A stretch of 64,000 nt of DNA, taken from the NCBI RefSeq assembly GCF_965641715.1, contig NZ_OZ282453.1; one strand, given 5' to 3'. This DNA comes from Escherichia coli (GTDB lineage: Bacteria; Pseudomonadota; Gammaproteobacteria; Enterobacterales; Enterobacteriaceae). The notes under the pieces were generated by a model. That model worked only from the letters and a program-made list of their open reading frames with translations. It was not told the origin of the DNA and did not search any database. Shown in pieces: positions 3,347 through 7,061 of the stretch (positions are counted from its first letter, which is position 1; each line of letters starts with the position of its first letter). The position numbers and the translations under genes were made by a program.

Positions 3347-3772
3347 TCAATGCACTGCCACAGCATTTCCTGCCGGGCCACCACGGTTCATCTGATTGAA
3401 ACCGGCGATTGCCACTGCGACAAAATCATCGGCGTCTCTCACCAGTCGCTCCCGCGTCTCCACCAGCTCCCGAAAATAAGCTGAACTGTGGCTACGCATT
3501 CTGGCCACCAGCAAAGGTGGCATTGCCTTTTCGATCGCTGGTAACAACGCCTGAATTTTTTCAACTGCATCAGGGGTGTCTTTCTCTACCCAGCGGAAAA
3601 TTTTCTGGGTATTGCGAGCCAGGGCTTCCGGATGGCTGTCGTCGTACAGTTCAGGAAACGTCATACCCAACTCAAAATAAGCCTGGGTTATTCCAGCTGC
3701 CGGAACTTTTTCGCCATCAGGACGCGCCCAGGCATTCATCGCCATGCGGATGTGTTCATGCTTGATTTTCAT
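3347..3772 (-). CDS. YdaT-like (CII-position) early regulator
   Basis: Translation from MKIKHEHI... resembles Rac prophage YdaT as remembered; strong RBS (AAGGGGGG); lies downstream of the Cro-like gene. Confidence 0.55.
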   Translation of the reverse strand: MKIKHEHIRMAMNAWARPDGEKVPAAGITQAYFELGMTFPELYDDSHPEALARNTQKIFRWVEKDTPDAVEKIQALLPAIEKAMPPLLVARMRSHSSAYFRELVETRERLVRDADDFVAVAIAGFNQMNRGGPAGNAVAVH

Positions 3773-3998
3773 GAATCCCCCCTTGGTTAGAAGGCGGATT
3801 ATGATCAGAACCGGGAATGACAACCGTCGGTATGTGTAACTCATATTTGAGCGCCCCGGCAGTGACTGCCTGAATTAGCAACGCCCATTTCCACGGAACC
3901 TCTTCCCCCCACATGCTGACTGTGGTTTTTGACGTTCCTAGAGCTGCGGCTGTTTTAACAACTCCGCCAAAATAGCCTAATACTTCTGATTTTTTCAT
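3756..3998 (-). CDS. Cro-like HTH regulator (YdaS-like)
   Basis: 80-aa ORF from MKKSEVLGYFGG... with GGAG RBS; divergent from the CI-like repressor. Confidence 0.6.
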   Translation of the reverse strand: MKKSEVLGYFGGVVKTAAALGTSKTTVSMWGEEVPWKWALLIQAVTAGALKYELHIPTVVIPGSDHNPPSNQGGIHENQA

Positions 3999-4089
3999 GA
4001 GTCGCTCCATAAAACTGAACGCCAAAAGTTTAATAATCAAAACCAAAGAAAGTCAAGAAACAAAACCATCTGTGTTTTAAAATCAAAAC
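3999..4089. promoter_or_regulatory. Divergent immunity promoter/operator region (pR/pRM equivalent)
   Basis: 91-bp AT-rich spacer between divergent cro-like and cI-like starts; contains inverted repeats AAACT-N10-AGTTT and AAAAC-N7-GTTTT. Confidence 0.5.
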
Positions 4090-4728
4090 ATGAGCAAGCA
4101 AACAATATCTGAACGCATAACCCAACGTATGCATGCGCTAAACCTGAAAGGCAAAGACCTTGTCAATGCCACTGGCGCATCAAAAGGCTCCGTAAGTCAA
4201 TGGATGAACGGTGGAGGAGCGCCGTCCTCGCGTTACATAAGTTCACTGGCAAAAATATTGAAAGTAAACGAAAATTGGCTTCTTAATGGAGGAGAGTTAA
4301 ATACAGGTGATTCGCTTGATCTATCTTTACCGCCGATAAAAACGGTTCCGCTACTATCACTTCAGCAGGCAGCAAGCTGGAGTGATTATATGAAAAATTC
4401 CTCAATAACCTCTTGTGTGCAGCTTGTCGGAGAAATCCCGGCCAATACCTTTGCAGTTGTTCTAGAGAGTGACAGTATGTCAACATCTGGTGGGGGAGTT
4501 TCCATCCCAAATGGTTCAACAGTTTTTGTTGATCCCGATCGAACCGTACAACCAGGAAATATTGTCCTTGCCTTACCCAAAGGGACCACAACACCTGTCA
4601 TTCGTAAACTGGAGATAGAAGGGCCGGATATTCTTTTAGTCCCCACGAATCCTCGCTACCCTTCAATTATGCTGGATGATCTATCTTGCATATTGGGCGT
4701 ATGCTTTAAAATTCAACAAGATATTTAA
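4090..4728 (+). CDS. CI-like prophage repressor (N-terminal HTH, C-terminal S24 LexA-like peptidase domain)
   Basis: 212-aa ORF with an HTH-like N-terminus (GASKGSVSQWMNGGGAPS) and a C-terminal region with the look of a LexA/CI autocleavage domain; divergent from the cro-like gene. Confidence 0.8.
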   Translation: MSKQTISERITQRMHALNLKGKDLVNATGASKGSVSQWMNGGGAPSSRYISSLAKILKVNENWLLNGGELNTGDSLDLSLPPIKTVPLLSLQQAASWSDYMKNSSITSCVQLVGEIPANTFAVVLESDSMSTSGGGVSIPNGSTVFVDPDRTVQPGNIVLALPKGTTTPVIRKLEIEGPDILLVPTNPRYPSIMLDDLSCILGVCFKIQQDI

Positions 4729-5159
4729 CCGACCTCATCTATTTGATTAACTGTATGCCATCGTGGTGATGGCTTAACAGCTGCCTGCTTAAAATGTTTT
4801 GATAAAAAAACATTGACCTGAAAAGTTCATTTTTCTAAACTTCATTCATTCCCTCTCCCCACCCCACAGAATGCAGGGCAATACTTCGAGTTACCAGGCA
4901 GTGGTCAGGGGTTAAGTAGCCAGCCTGAGGCGTAAGAACATGACGGCAGGGTCCAACTTTAATAACTATGCAGCAGGTTTTTGTTCCGCTACCCCGGCGT
5001 TAAGGGGAAACAGAGGATTTCTCAGTGGGCGAAGTCAAACATCAGAATGGAAGGCATCACGGGATCGGCAAAGAAGCAGCAATGGCGCTTTATATTGACA
5101 TCAGCGCCATTGCCGGACAGGTAAGAGTTATCAGAGCGGTAACTAAGCGGTATGCGTCT

Positions 5160-5360
5160 TTATTTCAGAAAGTCTCTGGTGAGTGCACCGAAGATATTGT
5201 CAACGATTTCGTCATCGAACTGCGAGGACTCATCTTCAGTTACAAGGTGACCACAATTTTTGCAGATGGCTCCCGCGAAACTGTCAGAGCCCTGCGGCTT
5301 AAAGGATGTGTCAAAGACTTCGCCACCACATTCTGGGCAAGAAAACTTGATTGTATTCAT
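5160..5360 (-). CDS. Small zinc-ribbon protein (66 aa)
   Basis: CPECGG ... CKNCG motif pair; AGGAAA RBS 8 nt upstream of ATG; antisense to a 118-aa plus-strand ORF, so the coding strand is not settled. Confidence 0.45.
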   Translation of the reverse strand: MNTIKFSCPECGGEVFDTSFKPQGSDSFAGAICKNCGHLVTEDESSQFDDEIVDNIFGALTRDFLK

Positions 5361-5452
5361 AACCAATTTCCTCTCGAGTAACAGACCCCTCAGAGGATAC
5401 CACCTCGCCTGACGTGGTTAAAAGCAGGCAATGCGAACCACAAGGAGCTGAC

Positions 5453-5671
5453 ATGCAGAAACGAGAACCTGTCATCATCGCGCCAGACTATACCGATGAT
5501 GAACTTTATGAGTGGATGCGCCAGAAAATTAATGCAGCGCAGGATCTGAAATGGGCTAATGAAGCCAGGGCTAAGCAGGCTGAAAATCTGTTCTCTCTGG
5601 AGCAGGATATCACCAATCTGGAAAAAGCAGCGGCATTAAGCATTGCCAGAATGATTACATACCCACGTTAA
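5453..5671 (+). CDS. Small phage protein (72 aa)
   Basis: AAGGAG RBS 7 nt upstream of ATG (MQKREPVIIAPDY...). Confidence 0.4.
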   Translation: MQKREPVIIAPDYTDDELYEWMRQKINAAQDLKWANEARAKQAENLFSLEQDITNLEKAAALSIARMITYPR

Positions 5672-5693: not shown

Positions 5694-6101
5694 ATGGAAT
5701 TTAAAGATTTACCAAAAGAAATCCAGACAATTGCTGCAACGACTCTCGGTGATAGTCTGGTGAAAATTGACCCGGCATACACCAAAAAAGAAACCATCGA
5801 TAATATGGTTCGTAATGTGCGCAATGCTTTTTCTGGGCTATATGGTTCTGATAATCAAAAGCAGGAAAGCGATGTTAATGAACGGGTAATTTCTGTTTGC
5901 GTGAATGGCCATGTTCTTTCATCAATCAAAACAGAAACAGCGACAGTCTTCGATTGCCTTTGCATTGTACAGAGCCTTGTTGATGCCCTGTTTCGTTCAG
6001 TGAATTTAGAAAATGATGCAAATCTGCGAGGGCGCACAATAGCACATCCATATGCACATACTTTAGGCTCTGTGGATATCAAAGATCCCACAAATCTTTA
6101 A
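5694..6101 (+). CDS. Hypothetical phage accessory protein (135 aa)
   Basis: GAGG RBS; 3' end overlaps the convergent 77-aa gene by 23 nt. Confidence 0.5.
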   Translation: MEFKDLPKEIQTIAATTLGDSLVKIDPAYTKKETIDNMVRNVRNAFSGLYGSDNQKQESDVNERVISVCVNGHVLSSIKTETATVFDCLCIVQSLVDALFRSVNLENDANLRGRTIAHPYAHTLGSVDIKDPTNL

Positions 6102-6312
6102 TGAAATAGTTAACGCGAATTGTACTTGCTCTTTCAGTTGCTTTCAGAATACGCGTTGAAACTGCTGGCGGTAATTTGGTATTCCATTTATTAAAATCAT
6201 GCCCGGGGAAGTACTCTTCGAAAATACTTTTAACTGCAGACTCGCCTATTGAAATGCTGCTTACCATGCGATTTTGATAAAGGCATTTAGCAATAAGAGT
6301 TGATTTTAACAT
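6079..6312 (-). CDS. Hypothetical small protein (77 aa), convergent with the early-left genes
   Basis: AGGAGG RBS immediately upstream of ATG. Confidence 0.4.
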   Translation of the reverse strand: MLKSTLIAKCLYQNRMVSSISIGESAVKSIFEEYFPGHDFNKWNTKLPPAVSTRILKATERASTIRVNYFIKDLWDL

Positions 6313-6803
6313 TCACCCTCCTGAGGGTTGGTAATTAAGGAGTTCTCCACGGGTGAGGTGGAGTGCGTGCGCCGGACACGGGTGAACATCCGGCACTGAC
6401 AGTTTACTGAAAGGATATTTCCCTGAAAAGTCAGACCATAACGCGAAAGCGCACGGCGAGGTAGCTGGTTCATAGATAGCCTGTCGTTAAATTTTCGTCG
6501 ACCGTGCGCTTCCGGTTGTGGCAACCCGCGAAATGGCGCGGCGGTAAGTATGGCGGGGTTATTCCTTCCCCGTTGAGGACACCGGGTTGTCAGGTTGACC
6601 ATACGCTTAAGTGACAACCCCGCTGCAACGCCCTCTGTTATCAATTTTCTGGTGACGTTTGGCGGTATCAGTTTTACTCCGTGACTGCTCTGCCGCCCTT
6701 TTTAAAGTGAATTTTGTGATGCGGTGAATGCGGCTAAGCGCACGCGGAACAGTTAAAACCAAAAACAGTGTTATGGGTGGATTCTCTGTATCCGGCGTTA
6801 ATT

Positions 6804-6817
6804 GTTAACTGGTTAAC
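6804..6817. promoter_or_regulatory. Palindromic GTTAAC-N2-GTTAAC site with a third GTTAA half-site adjacent (operator candidate)
   Basis: Read directly: cgTTAAttGTTAACtgGTTAACg, followed by a CCTGG-N5-CCAGG inverted repeat; ~60 bp upstream of the 62-aa gene start. Confidence 0.35.
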
Positions 6818-6872
6818 GTCACCTGGAGGCACCAGGCACTGCATCACAAAATTCATTGTTGAGGACGCGATA

Positions 6873-7061
6873 ATGAAAACGTTATTACCAAACGTTAATA
6901 CGTCTGAAGGTTGTTTTGAAATTGGTGTCACTATCAGTAACCCTGTATTTACTGAAGATGCCATTAACAAGAGAAAACAAGAACGGGAGCTATTAAATAA
7001 AATATGCATTGTTTCAATGCTGGCTCGTTTACGTCTGATGCCAAAAGGATGTGCACAATGA
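6873..7061 (+). CDS. Small protein (62 aa) with hydrophobic C-terminus
   Basis: GAGGA RBS; stop overlaps the next gene start (ATGA). Confidence 0.4.
   Translation: MKTLLPNVNTSEGCFEIGVTISNPVFTEDAINKRKQERELLNKICIVSMLARLRLMPKGCAQ

What the first reader, a model, noticed from the sequence alone, without database searches (positions are those of the whole stretch)
5025..5381. Overlapping antisense ORFs: zinc-ribbon gene (-) versus 118-aa ORF (+)
The 66-aa minus-strand ORF has a canonical RBS/ATG and a paired CxxC zinc-ribbon signature. The fully overlapping 118-aa plus-strand ORF has a GTG start, a possible GAGG RBS, and several rare AGA/AGG arginine codons. Only one is likely to be real, but the plus-strand ORF is co-oriented with the early-left operon, so the call is not certain.
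Basis: seen in the sequence. Interest (0 to 1): 0.35.

Follow-up and report, generated by a model that had tools for sequence, protein, structure and literature searches.

The report
Two real genes on opposite strands
The same 200 bases of this E. coli prophage appear to encode two different proteins, one on each DNA strand, and both have been kept together across distantly related enterobacterial prophages; this is a rare, well-supported and easily tested case of antisense dual coding.

Summary
They are in exact reverse-complement codon register, the classic "shadow ORF" frame. The expected result, one real gene and one shadow, is not what related sequences show.

About 12 diverged lineages were found in E. 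coli, Citrobacter, Klebsiella and Enterobacter genomes and in metagenome or virome contigs. The long protein falls to 35% identity, and one remote relative to about 22%. Both ORFs stay intact in every lineage.

- **Plus ORF:** codon periodicity and dN/dS 0.33 in its N-terminal 25 codons, which lie outside the zinc ORF. A Shine-Dalgarno and start codon in every lineage, and a confident AlphaFold model (pLDDT 87.7).
- **Minus ORF:** an NCBIfam member with invariant Cys, His and Phe residues. Synonymous divergence of the plus ORF drops about threefold inside the overlap.
- **Simulations:** selection on one frame alone leaves the other frame broken in most sequences.

Best reading, about 0.75: a genuine antisense dual-coding cassette beside the immunity region, with the zinc gene always antisense to the early operon. 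Function is unknown. I infer mutually exclusive expression: zinc protein in the lysogen, long protein after induction. Databases annotate one strand or the other, never both.

The parts
5025..5381 (+). Long ORF. It is 118 aa from the GTG at 5025 (SD AGAGGA at 5012-5017). The conserved core starts at the ATG at 5082 (99 aa, full-length match to PHROG 21318). The product is basic (pI 8.9). Predicted fold: helix, helix, beta-hairpin, helix.
   Evidence: (PHROG 21318, E 1.4e-65); coding signature in the 25 codons outside the overlap; pLDDT 87.7. SD plus start codon in every lineage. GenBank phage records annotate this strand.
5160..5360 (-). Zinc-ribbon ORF of 66 aa (stop at 5160-5162), nested entirely inside the long ORF in reverse-complement codon register. 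The product is acidic (pI 4.2). It has CPxC and CxxCGH knuckles 21 residues apart and an acidic C-terminal tail.
   Evidence: NF047912, 57.3 bits, above the cut-off of 37; intact in all diverged lineages; invariant Cys, His and Phe with synonymous toggling. RefSeq/PGAP annotates this strand.
5361..5431 (-). Conserved element of about 71 nt directly upstream of the zinc ORF. It contains the SD (AGGA at 5369-5372), a hairpin whose 3' arm abuts the SD, inverted repeats (GCCTG..CAGGC and ACCAC..GTGGT), and a possible extended -10 (TGGTATCCT) with a weak -35 (TTAACC). This is the candidate promoter and 5' UTR of the zinc gene.
   Evidence: conserved in 13 of 15 representative sequences, although the genes beyond it differ. 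The SD-adjacent hairpin has both-sides changes (window CCTCT..AGAGG, other lineages CTTGG..CCAAG). Promoter function is inferred only; the consensus scan does not flag it.
5012..5017 (+). Shine-Dalgarno-like AGAGGA, 7 nt upstream of the GTG start of the long ORF.
   Evidence: An equivalent GGAG or GAGG motif precedes the start codon in 13 of the 15 sequences shown; the two of the L007/L089 lineage start further upstream, outside the stretch shown.
4813..4841 (+). pL-like promoter (TTGACC, 17 nt, TAAACT) just downstream of the CI-like repressor gene (4090-4728). It would drive the early-left operon through the long ORF, convergent with the zinc gene.
   Evidence: One search is a consensus match only. 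One search supports the repressor assignment (Peptidase_S24 plus HTH).

Best explanation
Window 5025-5381 is a genuine antisense dual-coding cassette. The plus strand encodes a basic alpha/beta protein of about 100-118 aa, the first gene of the prophage early-left (pL-type) operon. The minus strand, codon for codon in reverse complement, encodes a 66-aa acidic zinc-ribbon protein with its own Shine-Dalgarno and a conserved upstream element. Both proteins are under purifying selection, and the pair moves between lambdoid prophages as one unit.

Shown:
- Both frames are conserved, open and constrained across about 12 diverged lineages.
- The zinc gene is always antisense to the operon it sits in.

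Inferred:
- The zinc gene is transcribed from its own promoter toward pL, so the two products are expressed in alternative states. The zinc protein is made in the lysogen while pL (or pR) is repressed. The long protein is made after induction, when strong early transcription reads through and silences the convergent zinc transcript by collision or antisense pairing.
- The overlap keeps two functionally coupled partners from being separated by recombination in mosaic phage genomes.

The biochemical function of each protein is not known.
For: **1. Co-occurrence.** Homologs were ascertained from the zinc side and from the long-ORF side. Every lineage keeps both ORFs, with the same zinc-ORF start and stop. 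The remotest, AT-rich relative also keeps a CPQC...CSNCG zinc ORF, 63 aa long.

**2. The long ORF is coding where nothing overlaps it.** In the 25 codons outside the zinc ORF, pairwise differences by codon position are 762/663/1163. dN/dS is 0.33 and there are no stops. The other forward frames give about 1.0 and contain stops. An SD plus start codon precedes it in every lineage. The AlphaFold model has pLDDT 87.7 and pTM 0.72.

**3. Codon-level signs of long-frame selection inside the overlap.**
- Arg72 is invariant but encoded by CGG, CGA, AGA, AGG or CGT, while the zinc residue opposite varies (P/S/T).
- Pro9 of the zinc protein is always CCA, opposite Trp TGG.
- Val40 is GTA in 13 of 15 sequences, opposite Tyr.
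- Zinc-frame E>K changes are Phe-synonymous in the long frame.

**4. Signs of zinc-frame selection.**
- The four Cys, His38 and Phe6/16/28 are invariant, while the long-frame residues opposite toggle A/T and K/E.
- Four-fold synonymous divergence of the long frame is 0.449 (0.28-0.60) outside the overlap and 0.157 (0.08-0.24) inside it.
- The protein passes the NCBIfam model.

**5. Simulations on the observed tree.** With selection on one frame only, the other frame carries stops in about 12 of 15 sequences, and 0 of 400 runs keep all 15 open. The observed amino-acid identity of the 'other' frame exceeds every run. A codon-usage-aware version, run at the neutral rate measured outside the overlap, gives 0 of 300 for each null.

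**6. Context.** The long ORF always runs with the early operon, pL-side in most loci and pR-side after cro in L002/L003.
Against: - No expression data were available, so translation of either ORF is untested.
- The zinc-protein model is of low confidence (pLDDT 56.6).
- With the most lenient neutral rates, ORF openness alone is only weakly significant. The zinc-only null gives all-open runs in about 1-6% of cases, and the long-only null is not rejected by openness alone.
- My OLGenie-type ratio dNN/dNS (0.44) is reproduced by a zinc-only null, so it carries no weight.
- Within E. coli the long frame shows little constraint in the overlap: 16 zinc-synonymous/long-nonsynonymous variants against 6 of the reverse kind.
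- Zinc-ORF nonsense alleles exist. E14* is in 15 of 75 IMG/VR loci, although it also changes the invariant Phe80 of the long protein. E44* is in one locus.
- The sequences are few and related, and the family is small (8 clusters at 50% identity).
- The promoter of the zinc gene and the expression switch are inference only.
Confidence: 0.75

Rival explanations
1. Only the zinc-ribbon gene is real. The plus ORF is a shadow ORF, kept open because the zinc gene happens to avoid TTA, CTA and TCA codons.
For: - The register is the shadow frame.
- The zinc protein is the more conserved of the two: mean identity 0.61 against 0.53.
- It belongs to a curated family.
- E. coli polymorphism favours the zinc frame, 16 variants against 6.
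- The plus ORF uses rare AGA codons.
- Lenient simulations leave a 1-6% chance that the plus frame stays open.
Against: - The plus frame shows codon periodicity and dN/dS 0.33 in 25 codons outside the zinc ORF, and an SD plus start codon in every lineage.
- It stays open over about 95-125 codons in about 12 lineages, including an AT-rich one whose other frames are full of stops.
- Its model has pLDDT 87.7 across both the non-overlap and the overlap parts.
- Arg72 is encoded by five different Arg codons while the zinc residue opposite varies; CCA and GTA are frozen opposite Trp and Tyr.
- TCA and CTA do occur in the zinc ORF, but only at codon 2, where the long ORF ends anyway.
Confidence: 0.12
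2. Only the long plus-strand gene is real. The zinc ORF is a by-product of its sequence. This is the annotation in GenBank phage records and in PHROGs, and it is what most metagenome gene callers chose.
For: - The long ORF runs with the operon and has a confident predicted fold, whereas the zinc model is poor.
- Natural nonsense alleles of the zinc ORF exist with the long ORF still open.
- Openness of the zinc frame alone is not significant under a very low neutral rate.
Against: - The four Cys, His38 and three Phe are invariant, while the long-frame residues opposite toggle Ala/Thr and Lys/Glu; the third positions of those long-frame codons are frozen.
- Synonymous divergence of the long frame falls from 0.449 outside the overlap to 0.157 inside it.
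- The start, the stop and a strong SD are conserved, including in L002/L003 where the upstream DNA is unrelated.
- Canonical CPxCG and CxxCGH knuckles persist in the remotest homolog.
- The protein exceeds the NCBIfam cut-off.
- Simulated long-only evolution gives zinc-frame identity of 0.46 against 0.61 observed, with 0 of 400 runs reaching it.
Confidence: 0.1
3. The extra constraint acts on nucleic acid rather than on a second protein. For example, the minus-strand transcript might act only as an antisense RNA against early-operon mRNA, or a structured RNA or DNA site might lie inside one real gene.
For: - Nucleotide conservation is very high in the middle of the overlap; TGT GGT CAC .. GTA ACT is nearly invariant.
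- A conserved, structured element lies next to it.
- The convergent arrangement would produce antisense RNA in any case.
Against: - The patterns are codon-level in both frames: switching within the Arg codon family, TGY toggling at Cys, and TTY toggling at Phe.
- Both ORFs keep their start, stop and SD.
- No Rfam family matches the region.
- An antisense-RNA role is compatible with dual coding and does not replace it.
Confidence: 0.03

Closest known systems
Shadow ORFs (long antisense ORFs in the reverse-complement codon frame of real genes)
   Same: Same register: stops in the antisense frame arise only from TTA, CTA or TCA codons, so long open antisense frames are common by chance (established knowledge; the register is shown).
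   Different: A shadow ORF does not extend as conserved coding sequence beyond the real gene. It has no SD or start of its own and decays in diverged homologs. Here none of these holds, for either ORF.
Antisense overlapping genes reported in enterohaemorrhagic E. coli (for example oloz0137/yadF, oloz4542/yhbY and oloz5029 overlapping ehaG in PMC9927249; ano/ECs2385 in PMC5960689)
   Same: A protein-coding ORF embedded antisense in another protein-coding gene in E. coli. The same proof strategy applies: stop codons that are synonymous in the partner frame.
   Different: Those genes are young and taxonomically restricted. The paper states that the mother genes were always found more widely, without the overlapping gene, and that none of them lies in a phage-derived region (PMC9927249). 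Here the two partners co-occur in every homolog down to about 22-35% identity, inside prophages, and neither can be called the 'mother' gene.
Lambda Rz/Rz1 and phiX174-type phage gene-in-gene overlaps (own knowledge)
   Same: A phage encodes two functionally linked proteins in the same DNA, so the pair is inherited as one unit.
   Different: Those overlaps are on the same strand in a shifted frame and are co-transcribed. This pair is on opposite strands, which implies separate promoters and probably opposite regulation.
Lysogen-expressed genes set against the pL operon, such as sieB
   Same: A small gene next to the immunity region, oriented against the early-left operon. In L007 a SieB-family gene lies next to the zinc gene and shares its orientation.
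   Different: Those genes are not reported to share their DNA with another protein-coding gene (own knowledge, not examined here). There is no sequence similarity to SieB, and expression of the zinc gene in lysogens was not tested.
Small zinc-ribbon proteins (TFIIB/TFIIE-type ribbons, Lar-family restriction alleviation proteins, archaeal HVO_2753-like proteins)
   Same: Two CxxC knuckles about 20 residues apart. There are weak profile matches, and the genome-wide pattern scan recovered archaeal TFIIB ribbons.
   Different: All these matches are below the family cut-offs (Lar 15.7 against 39.6 bits; PF08271 21.8 against 29). The resemblance is generic to the fold and says nothing about function.

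Membership tests
NCBIfam NF047912 (ECs_2282 family putative zinc-binding protein) | Whole-protein HMM score at or above the curated cut-off of 37 bits | tested here: met
   57.3 bits, E 1e-15, residues 4-59 on profile positions 1-56 of 60. RefSeq gives near-identical copies this name.
Zinc ribbon (four-Cys, two-knuckle fold) | Two CxxC knuckles, conserved across the family | tested here: met
   C8, C11, C33 and C36 are invariant in 14 aligned proteins and 15 codon-aligned sequences. They are also present in the remotest homolog.
Zinc ribbon (four-Cys, two-knuckle fold) | Folds as a ribbon and binds zinc | tested here: inconclusive
   The AlphaFold model has mean pLDDT 56.6 and pTM 0.39 from a 14-sequence alignment. 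Metal binding cannot be tested with these tools.
PHROG 21318 (phage protein family of unknown function) | Full-length profile match | tested here: met
   Residues 20-118 match profile positions 1-99 of 99, E 1.4e-65.
Antisense overlapping protein-coding gene pair | Both ORFs intact in diverged homologs | tested here: met
   About 12 lineages, ascertained from both sides, all keep both ORFs. The only exceptions are E. coli alleles with a point nonsense mutation or a frameshift.
Antisense overlapping protein-coding gene pair | Purifying selection on each frame that selection on the other frame cannot explain | tested here: met
   Coding signature of the long frame outside the overlap. A threefold drop in long-frame synonymous divergence inside the overlap, and reciprocal codon-level patterns. 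Single-frame simulations are rejected at the neutral rate measured outside the overlap. Under lenient rates the openness test is weaker, and the OLGenie-type ratio is uninformative.
Antisense overlapping protein-coding gene pair | Each ORF has its own translation signals | tested here: met
   A Shine-Dalgarno motif 5-10 nt before the start codon of each ORF in every lineage examined.
Antisense overlapping protein-coding gene pair | Both products are actually made | not testable with these tools
   No Ribo-seq, proteomic or tagging data were available. Literature searches found nothing on this locus.
Shadow-ORF artefact | The antisense ORF has no conservation of its own and decays in diverged homologs | tested here: not met
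Lar family restriction alleviation protein (TIGR03655) | HMM score at or above 39.6 bits | tested here: not met
   15.7 bits, E 0.014. The PHROG Lar-like family matches at E 0.0098 only.
Known anti-phage defence or toxin-antitoxin proteins (PADLOC-DB) | Significant match to a defence-system model | tested here: not met
   Zinc protein: best E 0.0019 to candidate model PDC-M14A. Long protein: no match.

The most novel reading that the evidence does not exclude
A mobile two-protein cassette is written on both strands of the same 200 bases, locked in reverse-complement codon register. Its two products are functionally coupled and are expressed in opposite life-cycle states: the acidic zinc ribbon in the lysogen, the basic alpha/beta protein after induction, switched by convergent transcription. 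The overlap itself is selected because it makes the pair inseparable by recombination. This would be an ancient, co-evolving antisense gene pair, not a young gene born inside an older one.
Probability: 0.3. Interest if true: 0.85.

Novelty: new member of a known kind. Interest (0 to 1): 0.62.

Why it matters
**An open question.** Whether functional antisense overlapping protein-coding genes exist in bacteria and their phages is still disputed. The published cases are young, narrowly distributed and weakly conserved. This pair is conserved together over deep divergence, with reciprocal codon-level footprints of selection. That makes it one of the cleaner natural test cases.

**Directly testable.** Single-base changes stop one frame and are silent in the other, and one such allele already occurs in nature.

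**An annotation blind spot.** RefSeq/PGAP annotates only the zinc ORF. GenBank phage records and PHROGs carry only the long ORF. Each resource therefore drops one probable gene, and about 816 of 5,426 complete E. coli genomes carry the region.

**Phage biology.** The cassette sits at the most regulated spot of a temperate phage, next to the immunity region. A strand-encoded expression switch there would be a new regulatory layout.

Tried and rejected
- **OLGenie-type dN/dS.** I computed dNN/dNS (0.44) and dNN/dSN (0.25) for the overlap. A null with selection on the zinc frame only gives the same dNN/dNS (0.442 ± 0.069), so I dropped this ratio as evidence.
- **ORF openness.** Under equal-base simulations it looked decisive. 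A codon-usage-aware model weakens it at lenient neutral rates, and I report both.
- **Species-representative genomes.** A scan with the zinc profile found only archaeal TFIIB zinc ribbons and one Akkermansiaceae hit, and no family members.
- **Defence systems.** PADLOC gave nothing meaningful.
- **RNA families.** Rfam finds nothing in the cassette, only DicF downstream.
- **Literature.** No paper mentions ECs2282. The EHEC overlapping-gene papers concern other, non-phage loci.
- **Antiterminator idea.** I considered the long ORF as an N-like antiterminator because of its position. I rejected this because it has no Arg-rich N-terminus and in L002/L003 the cassette sits after cro in the pR operon.
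- **Promoter scan.** The consensus scan does not flag a promoter for the zinc gene. The extended -10 I describe matches 8 of 12 positions and is unverified.

Full report
**Setting**

The window is a Qin/lambdoid-type E. coli prophage.
- A CI-like repressor (HTH plus Peptidase_S24) lies at 4090-4728 (+), and a P22-Cro-like gene at 3756-4046 (-).
- A pL-like promoter match lies at 4813-4841 (+).
- The early-left operon runs rightward through ydfC (5453-5671), DicF RNA (6647-6698, 76.7 bits), an exonuclease gene, xis and int.
- The finding is the first coding stretch of that operon.
- In K-12-like Qin prophages, ydfA and ydfB lie between the two flanks that match the window, that is, in the cassette's position (hits H8-H16).

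**The observation**

Both ORFs exist as described.
- The + ORF is at 5025-5381: 118 aa from GTG, with AGAGGA 7 nt upstream. An internal ATG at 5082 gives 99 aa.
- The - ORF is at 5160-5360: 66 aa from ATG, with AGGA 8 nt upstream, and CPEC and CKNC knuckles.
- The two are in exact reverse-complement codon register. This is the frame in which shadow ORFs are common, so a single sequence cannot decide the matter.

**Databases disagree**

The zinc ORF passes the curated NCBIfam model ECs_2282_CxxC (57.3 bits, cut-off 37), and RefSeq annotates that strand. The long ORF matches PHROG 21318 end to end (E 1.4e-65), and GenBank phage records annotate that strand as a 357-nt CDS. No record I examined annotates both.

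**Related sequences**

I searched from the zinc protein and, separately, from a profile of the long protein.
- Homologs were found in named Citrobacter, Klebsiella and Enterobacter genomes, in one Serratia protein record, and in unnamed metagenome or virome contigs.
- The zinc protein falls to about 45% identity and the long protein to 35%. One AT-rich remote relative is at about 22% (P0057).
- In every lineage for which I could read DNA (about 12), both ORFs are intact. In all but the remotest relative the zinc ORF is 66 codons with the same Met and the same stop; in that relative (L101) it is 63 aa.
- The long ORF spans the zinc ORF completely and extends about 27 or more codons beyond it.
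- TCA and CTA codons, which would stop the long frame, do occur in the zinc ORF. They occur only at codon 2, where the long ORF ends anyway.

**The long ORF is coding where it does not overlap**

In the 25 codons upstream of the zinc stop, pairwise differences by codon position are 762/663/1163. dN/dS is 0.33 and there are no stops. The other two forward frames give 0.98 and 1.00 and contain 16-18 stops. A GGAG or GAGG motif precedes a start codon in every lineage, although the exact start moves. AlphaFold2, given 24 sequences, produces a confident model (pLDDT 87.7, pTM 0.72; helix 8-28, helix 33-48, hairpin 51-73, helix 77-95). Confidence is high in both the non-overlap and the overlap parts.

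**Inside the overlap each frame leaves its own footprint**

For the zinc frame:
- Cys8, Cys11, Cys33, Cys36 and His38 are invariant. Three of the Cys codons toggle TGC/TGT, and the long-frame residue opposite toggles Ala/Thr with a frozen third position.
- Phe6, Phe16 and Phe28 are invariant (TTT/TTC), while the long frame toggles Lys/Glu.

For the long frame:
- Arg72 is invariant but written as CGG, CGA, AGA, AGG or CGT, while the zinc residue opposite varies Pro/Ser/Thr.
- Two more Arg positions persist through TCT to CCT to CCG changes in the zinc frame.
- Pro9 is always CCA, opposite Trp. Val40 is GTA in 13 of 15 sequences, opposite Tyr.
- Zinc-frame Glu to Lys changes are Phe-synonymous in the long frame.

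Four-fold synonymous divergence of the long frame is 0.449 (bootstrap 0.28-0.60) outside the overlap and 0.157 (0.08-0.24) inside it. The zinc frame gives 0.303.

**Simulations**

I evolved sequences on the observed tree, allowing in one frame only the amino acids seen at each site.
- Matched to the observed nucleotide divergence, a zinc-only model leaves stops in the long frame of 12.4 of 15 sequences (0 of 400 runs all open). It gives long-frame identity of 0.42 against 0.535 observed.
- A long-only model leaves stops in the zinc frame of 11.7 of 15 sequences (0 of 400). It gives zinc-frame identity of 0.46 against 0.61 observed.
- A codon-usage-aware version, run at the neutral rate measured outside the overlap, gives 0 of 300 for each model.
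- At the most lenient rates the zinc-only model keeps all 15 sequences open in about 1-6% of runs, and the long-only model is not rejected by openness alone.
- My OLGenie-type ratio dNN/dNS (0.44) is reproduced by the zinc-only null, so I give it no weight.

**Recent evolution in E. coli**

Among 30 distinct E. coli-type sequences (75 loci), the overlap has 16 variants that are zinc-synonymous and long-nonsynonymous. It has 6 of the reverse kind, 8 that change both proteins and 1 silent in both, with similar numbers of sites available. The zinc frame is therefore the more constrained at shallow depth.

Two nonsense alleles hit the zinc ORF. E14* is in 15 loci and also changes the otherwise invariant Phe80 of the long protein. 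E44* is in one locus and is silent in the long frame. Two frameshift alleles destroy both ORFs. These may reflect decay in defective prophages. They also show that the frame-specific mutants needed for a test are viable.

**Context and inferred mechanism**

The long ORF always runs with the adjacent early operon and the zinc ORF against it. In most loci the cassette is the first or second gene after the repressor on the pL side. In L002/L003 it follows cro on the pR side. It therefore moves as a cassette.

A conserved element of about 71 nt directly precedes the zinc ORF in 13 of 15 representative sequences, whatever lies beyond it. It contains the SD, a hairpin abutting the SD that shows both-sides changes, two inverted repeats and a possible extended -10.

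From this I infer, but have not shown, that the zinc gene has its own promoter firing toward pL. The acidic zinc protein (pI 4.2) would then be made while the early operon is repressed. The basic long protein (pI 8.9) would be made when the operon is on, with convergent transcription enforcing the exclusion. I put this at about 0.3-0.4.

The biochemical roles remain open. The long protein has no sequence or fold relatives. The zinc protein has only generic zinc-ribbon resemblance to TFIIB, TFIIE and Lar types, all below the family cut-offs. Neither matches a known defence protein.

**Comparison with what is known**

This is not a shadow-ORF artefact, because the defining features of one were tested and not met. 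It belongs to the recognised but disputed class of antisense overlapping protein-coding genes. It differs from the published E. coli cases, whose mother genes occur widely without the embedded gene and which are not in phage DNA (PMC9927249). Here the two partners co-occur everywhere and neither is obviously older. No paper in the searchable library mentions this locus.

**Verdict**

Both ORFs are probably real (about 0.75). Zinc-only (0.12), long-only (0.10) and nucleic-acid-only constraint (0.03) are the rivals. The decisive experiments are simple and are listed separately.

Noticed in passing
window 4857-5010: A stretch of about 154 nt in the leader between the pL-like promoter and the cassette matches in thousands of E. 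coli genomes (4,364 records hold some part of the query). These include prophages that carry ydfA-ydfB instead of this cassette and records with no annotated feature at that position. It contains no convincing ORF and has no Rfam match. It may be a conserved early-leader element, such as a nut- or put-like antitermination or processing site.
   Followed up: no
window 5394-5430: A 37-nt piece of the conserved element upstream of the zinc ORF (ACCACCTCGCCTGACGTGGTTAAAAGCAGGC...) also occurs alone, at 97-100% identity, in E. coli genomes that lack the rest of the query (hits H28-H30). GCCTG..CAGGC and CCAC..GTGG are interleaved, so the element could form alternative hairpins, a pseudoknot, or a protein operator. 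One lineage (L095) changes both sides of the first stem.
   Followed up: partly
window 6647-6905: DicF RNA at 6647-6698 (76.7 bits) is followed directly by a below-threshold match to sRNA family STnc100 at 6696-6905 (34.8 bits, gathering score 47).
   Followed up: no
L007, L008, L010, L089, L090 (long ORF N-terminal extension); proteins P0020, P0030, P0034: In one Enterobacter-type lineage the long ORF carries a 30-aa N-terminal extension with its own CxxCG motif (NKCKSCGY or SECPHCGF), giving a 126-aa protein. In L004/L005 gene callers report a 174-aa version. The N-terminus of the long protein is clearly variable.
   Followed up: no
L032, L033, L038, L047 groups (15 IMG/VR loci); L013: Two natural frame-specific alleles. 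GAA to TAA at zinc codon 14 stops the zinc ORF and changes the invariant Phe80 of the long protein to Leu. GAG to TAG at zinc codon 44 stops the zinc ORF and is silent in the long frame.
   Followed up: partly
L002 and L003, about 4001-4285: In a Citrobacter and a Klebsiella prophage the whole cassette sits in the pR-side operon directly after the cro-like gene, the cII position, instead of after the repressor on the pL side. It has a different upstream element but still a strong SD before the zinc ORF.
   Followed up: partly
window 6079-6312 (-): A second minus-strand ORF (77 aa) lies inside the plus-strand early-left operon. RefSeq annotates its counterpart as a hypothetical protein (L001, 6348-6581). 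It slightly overlaps the end of the 135-aa + ORF at 5694-6101.
   Followed up: no
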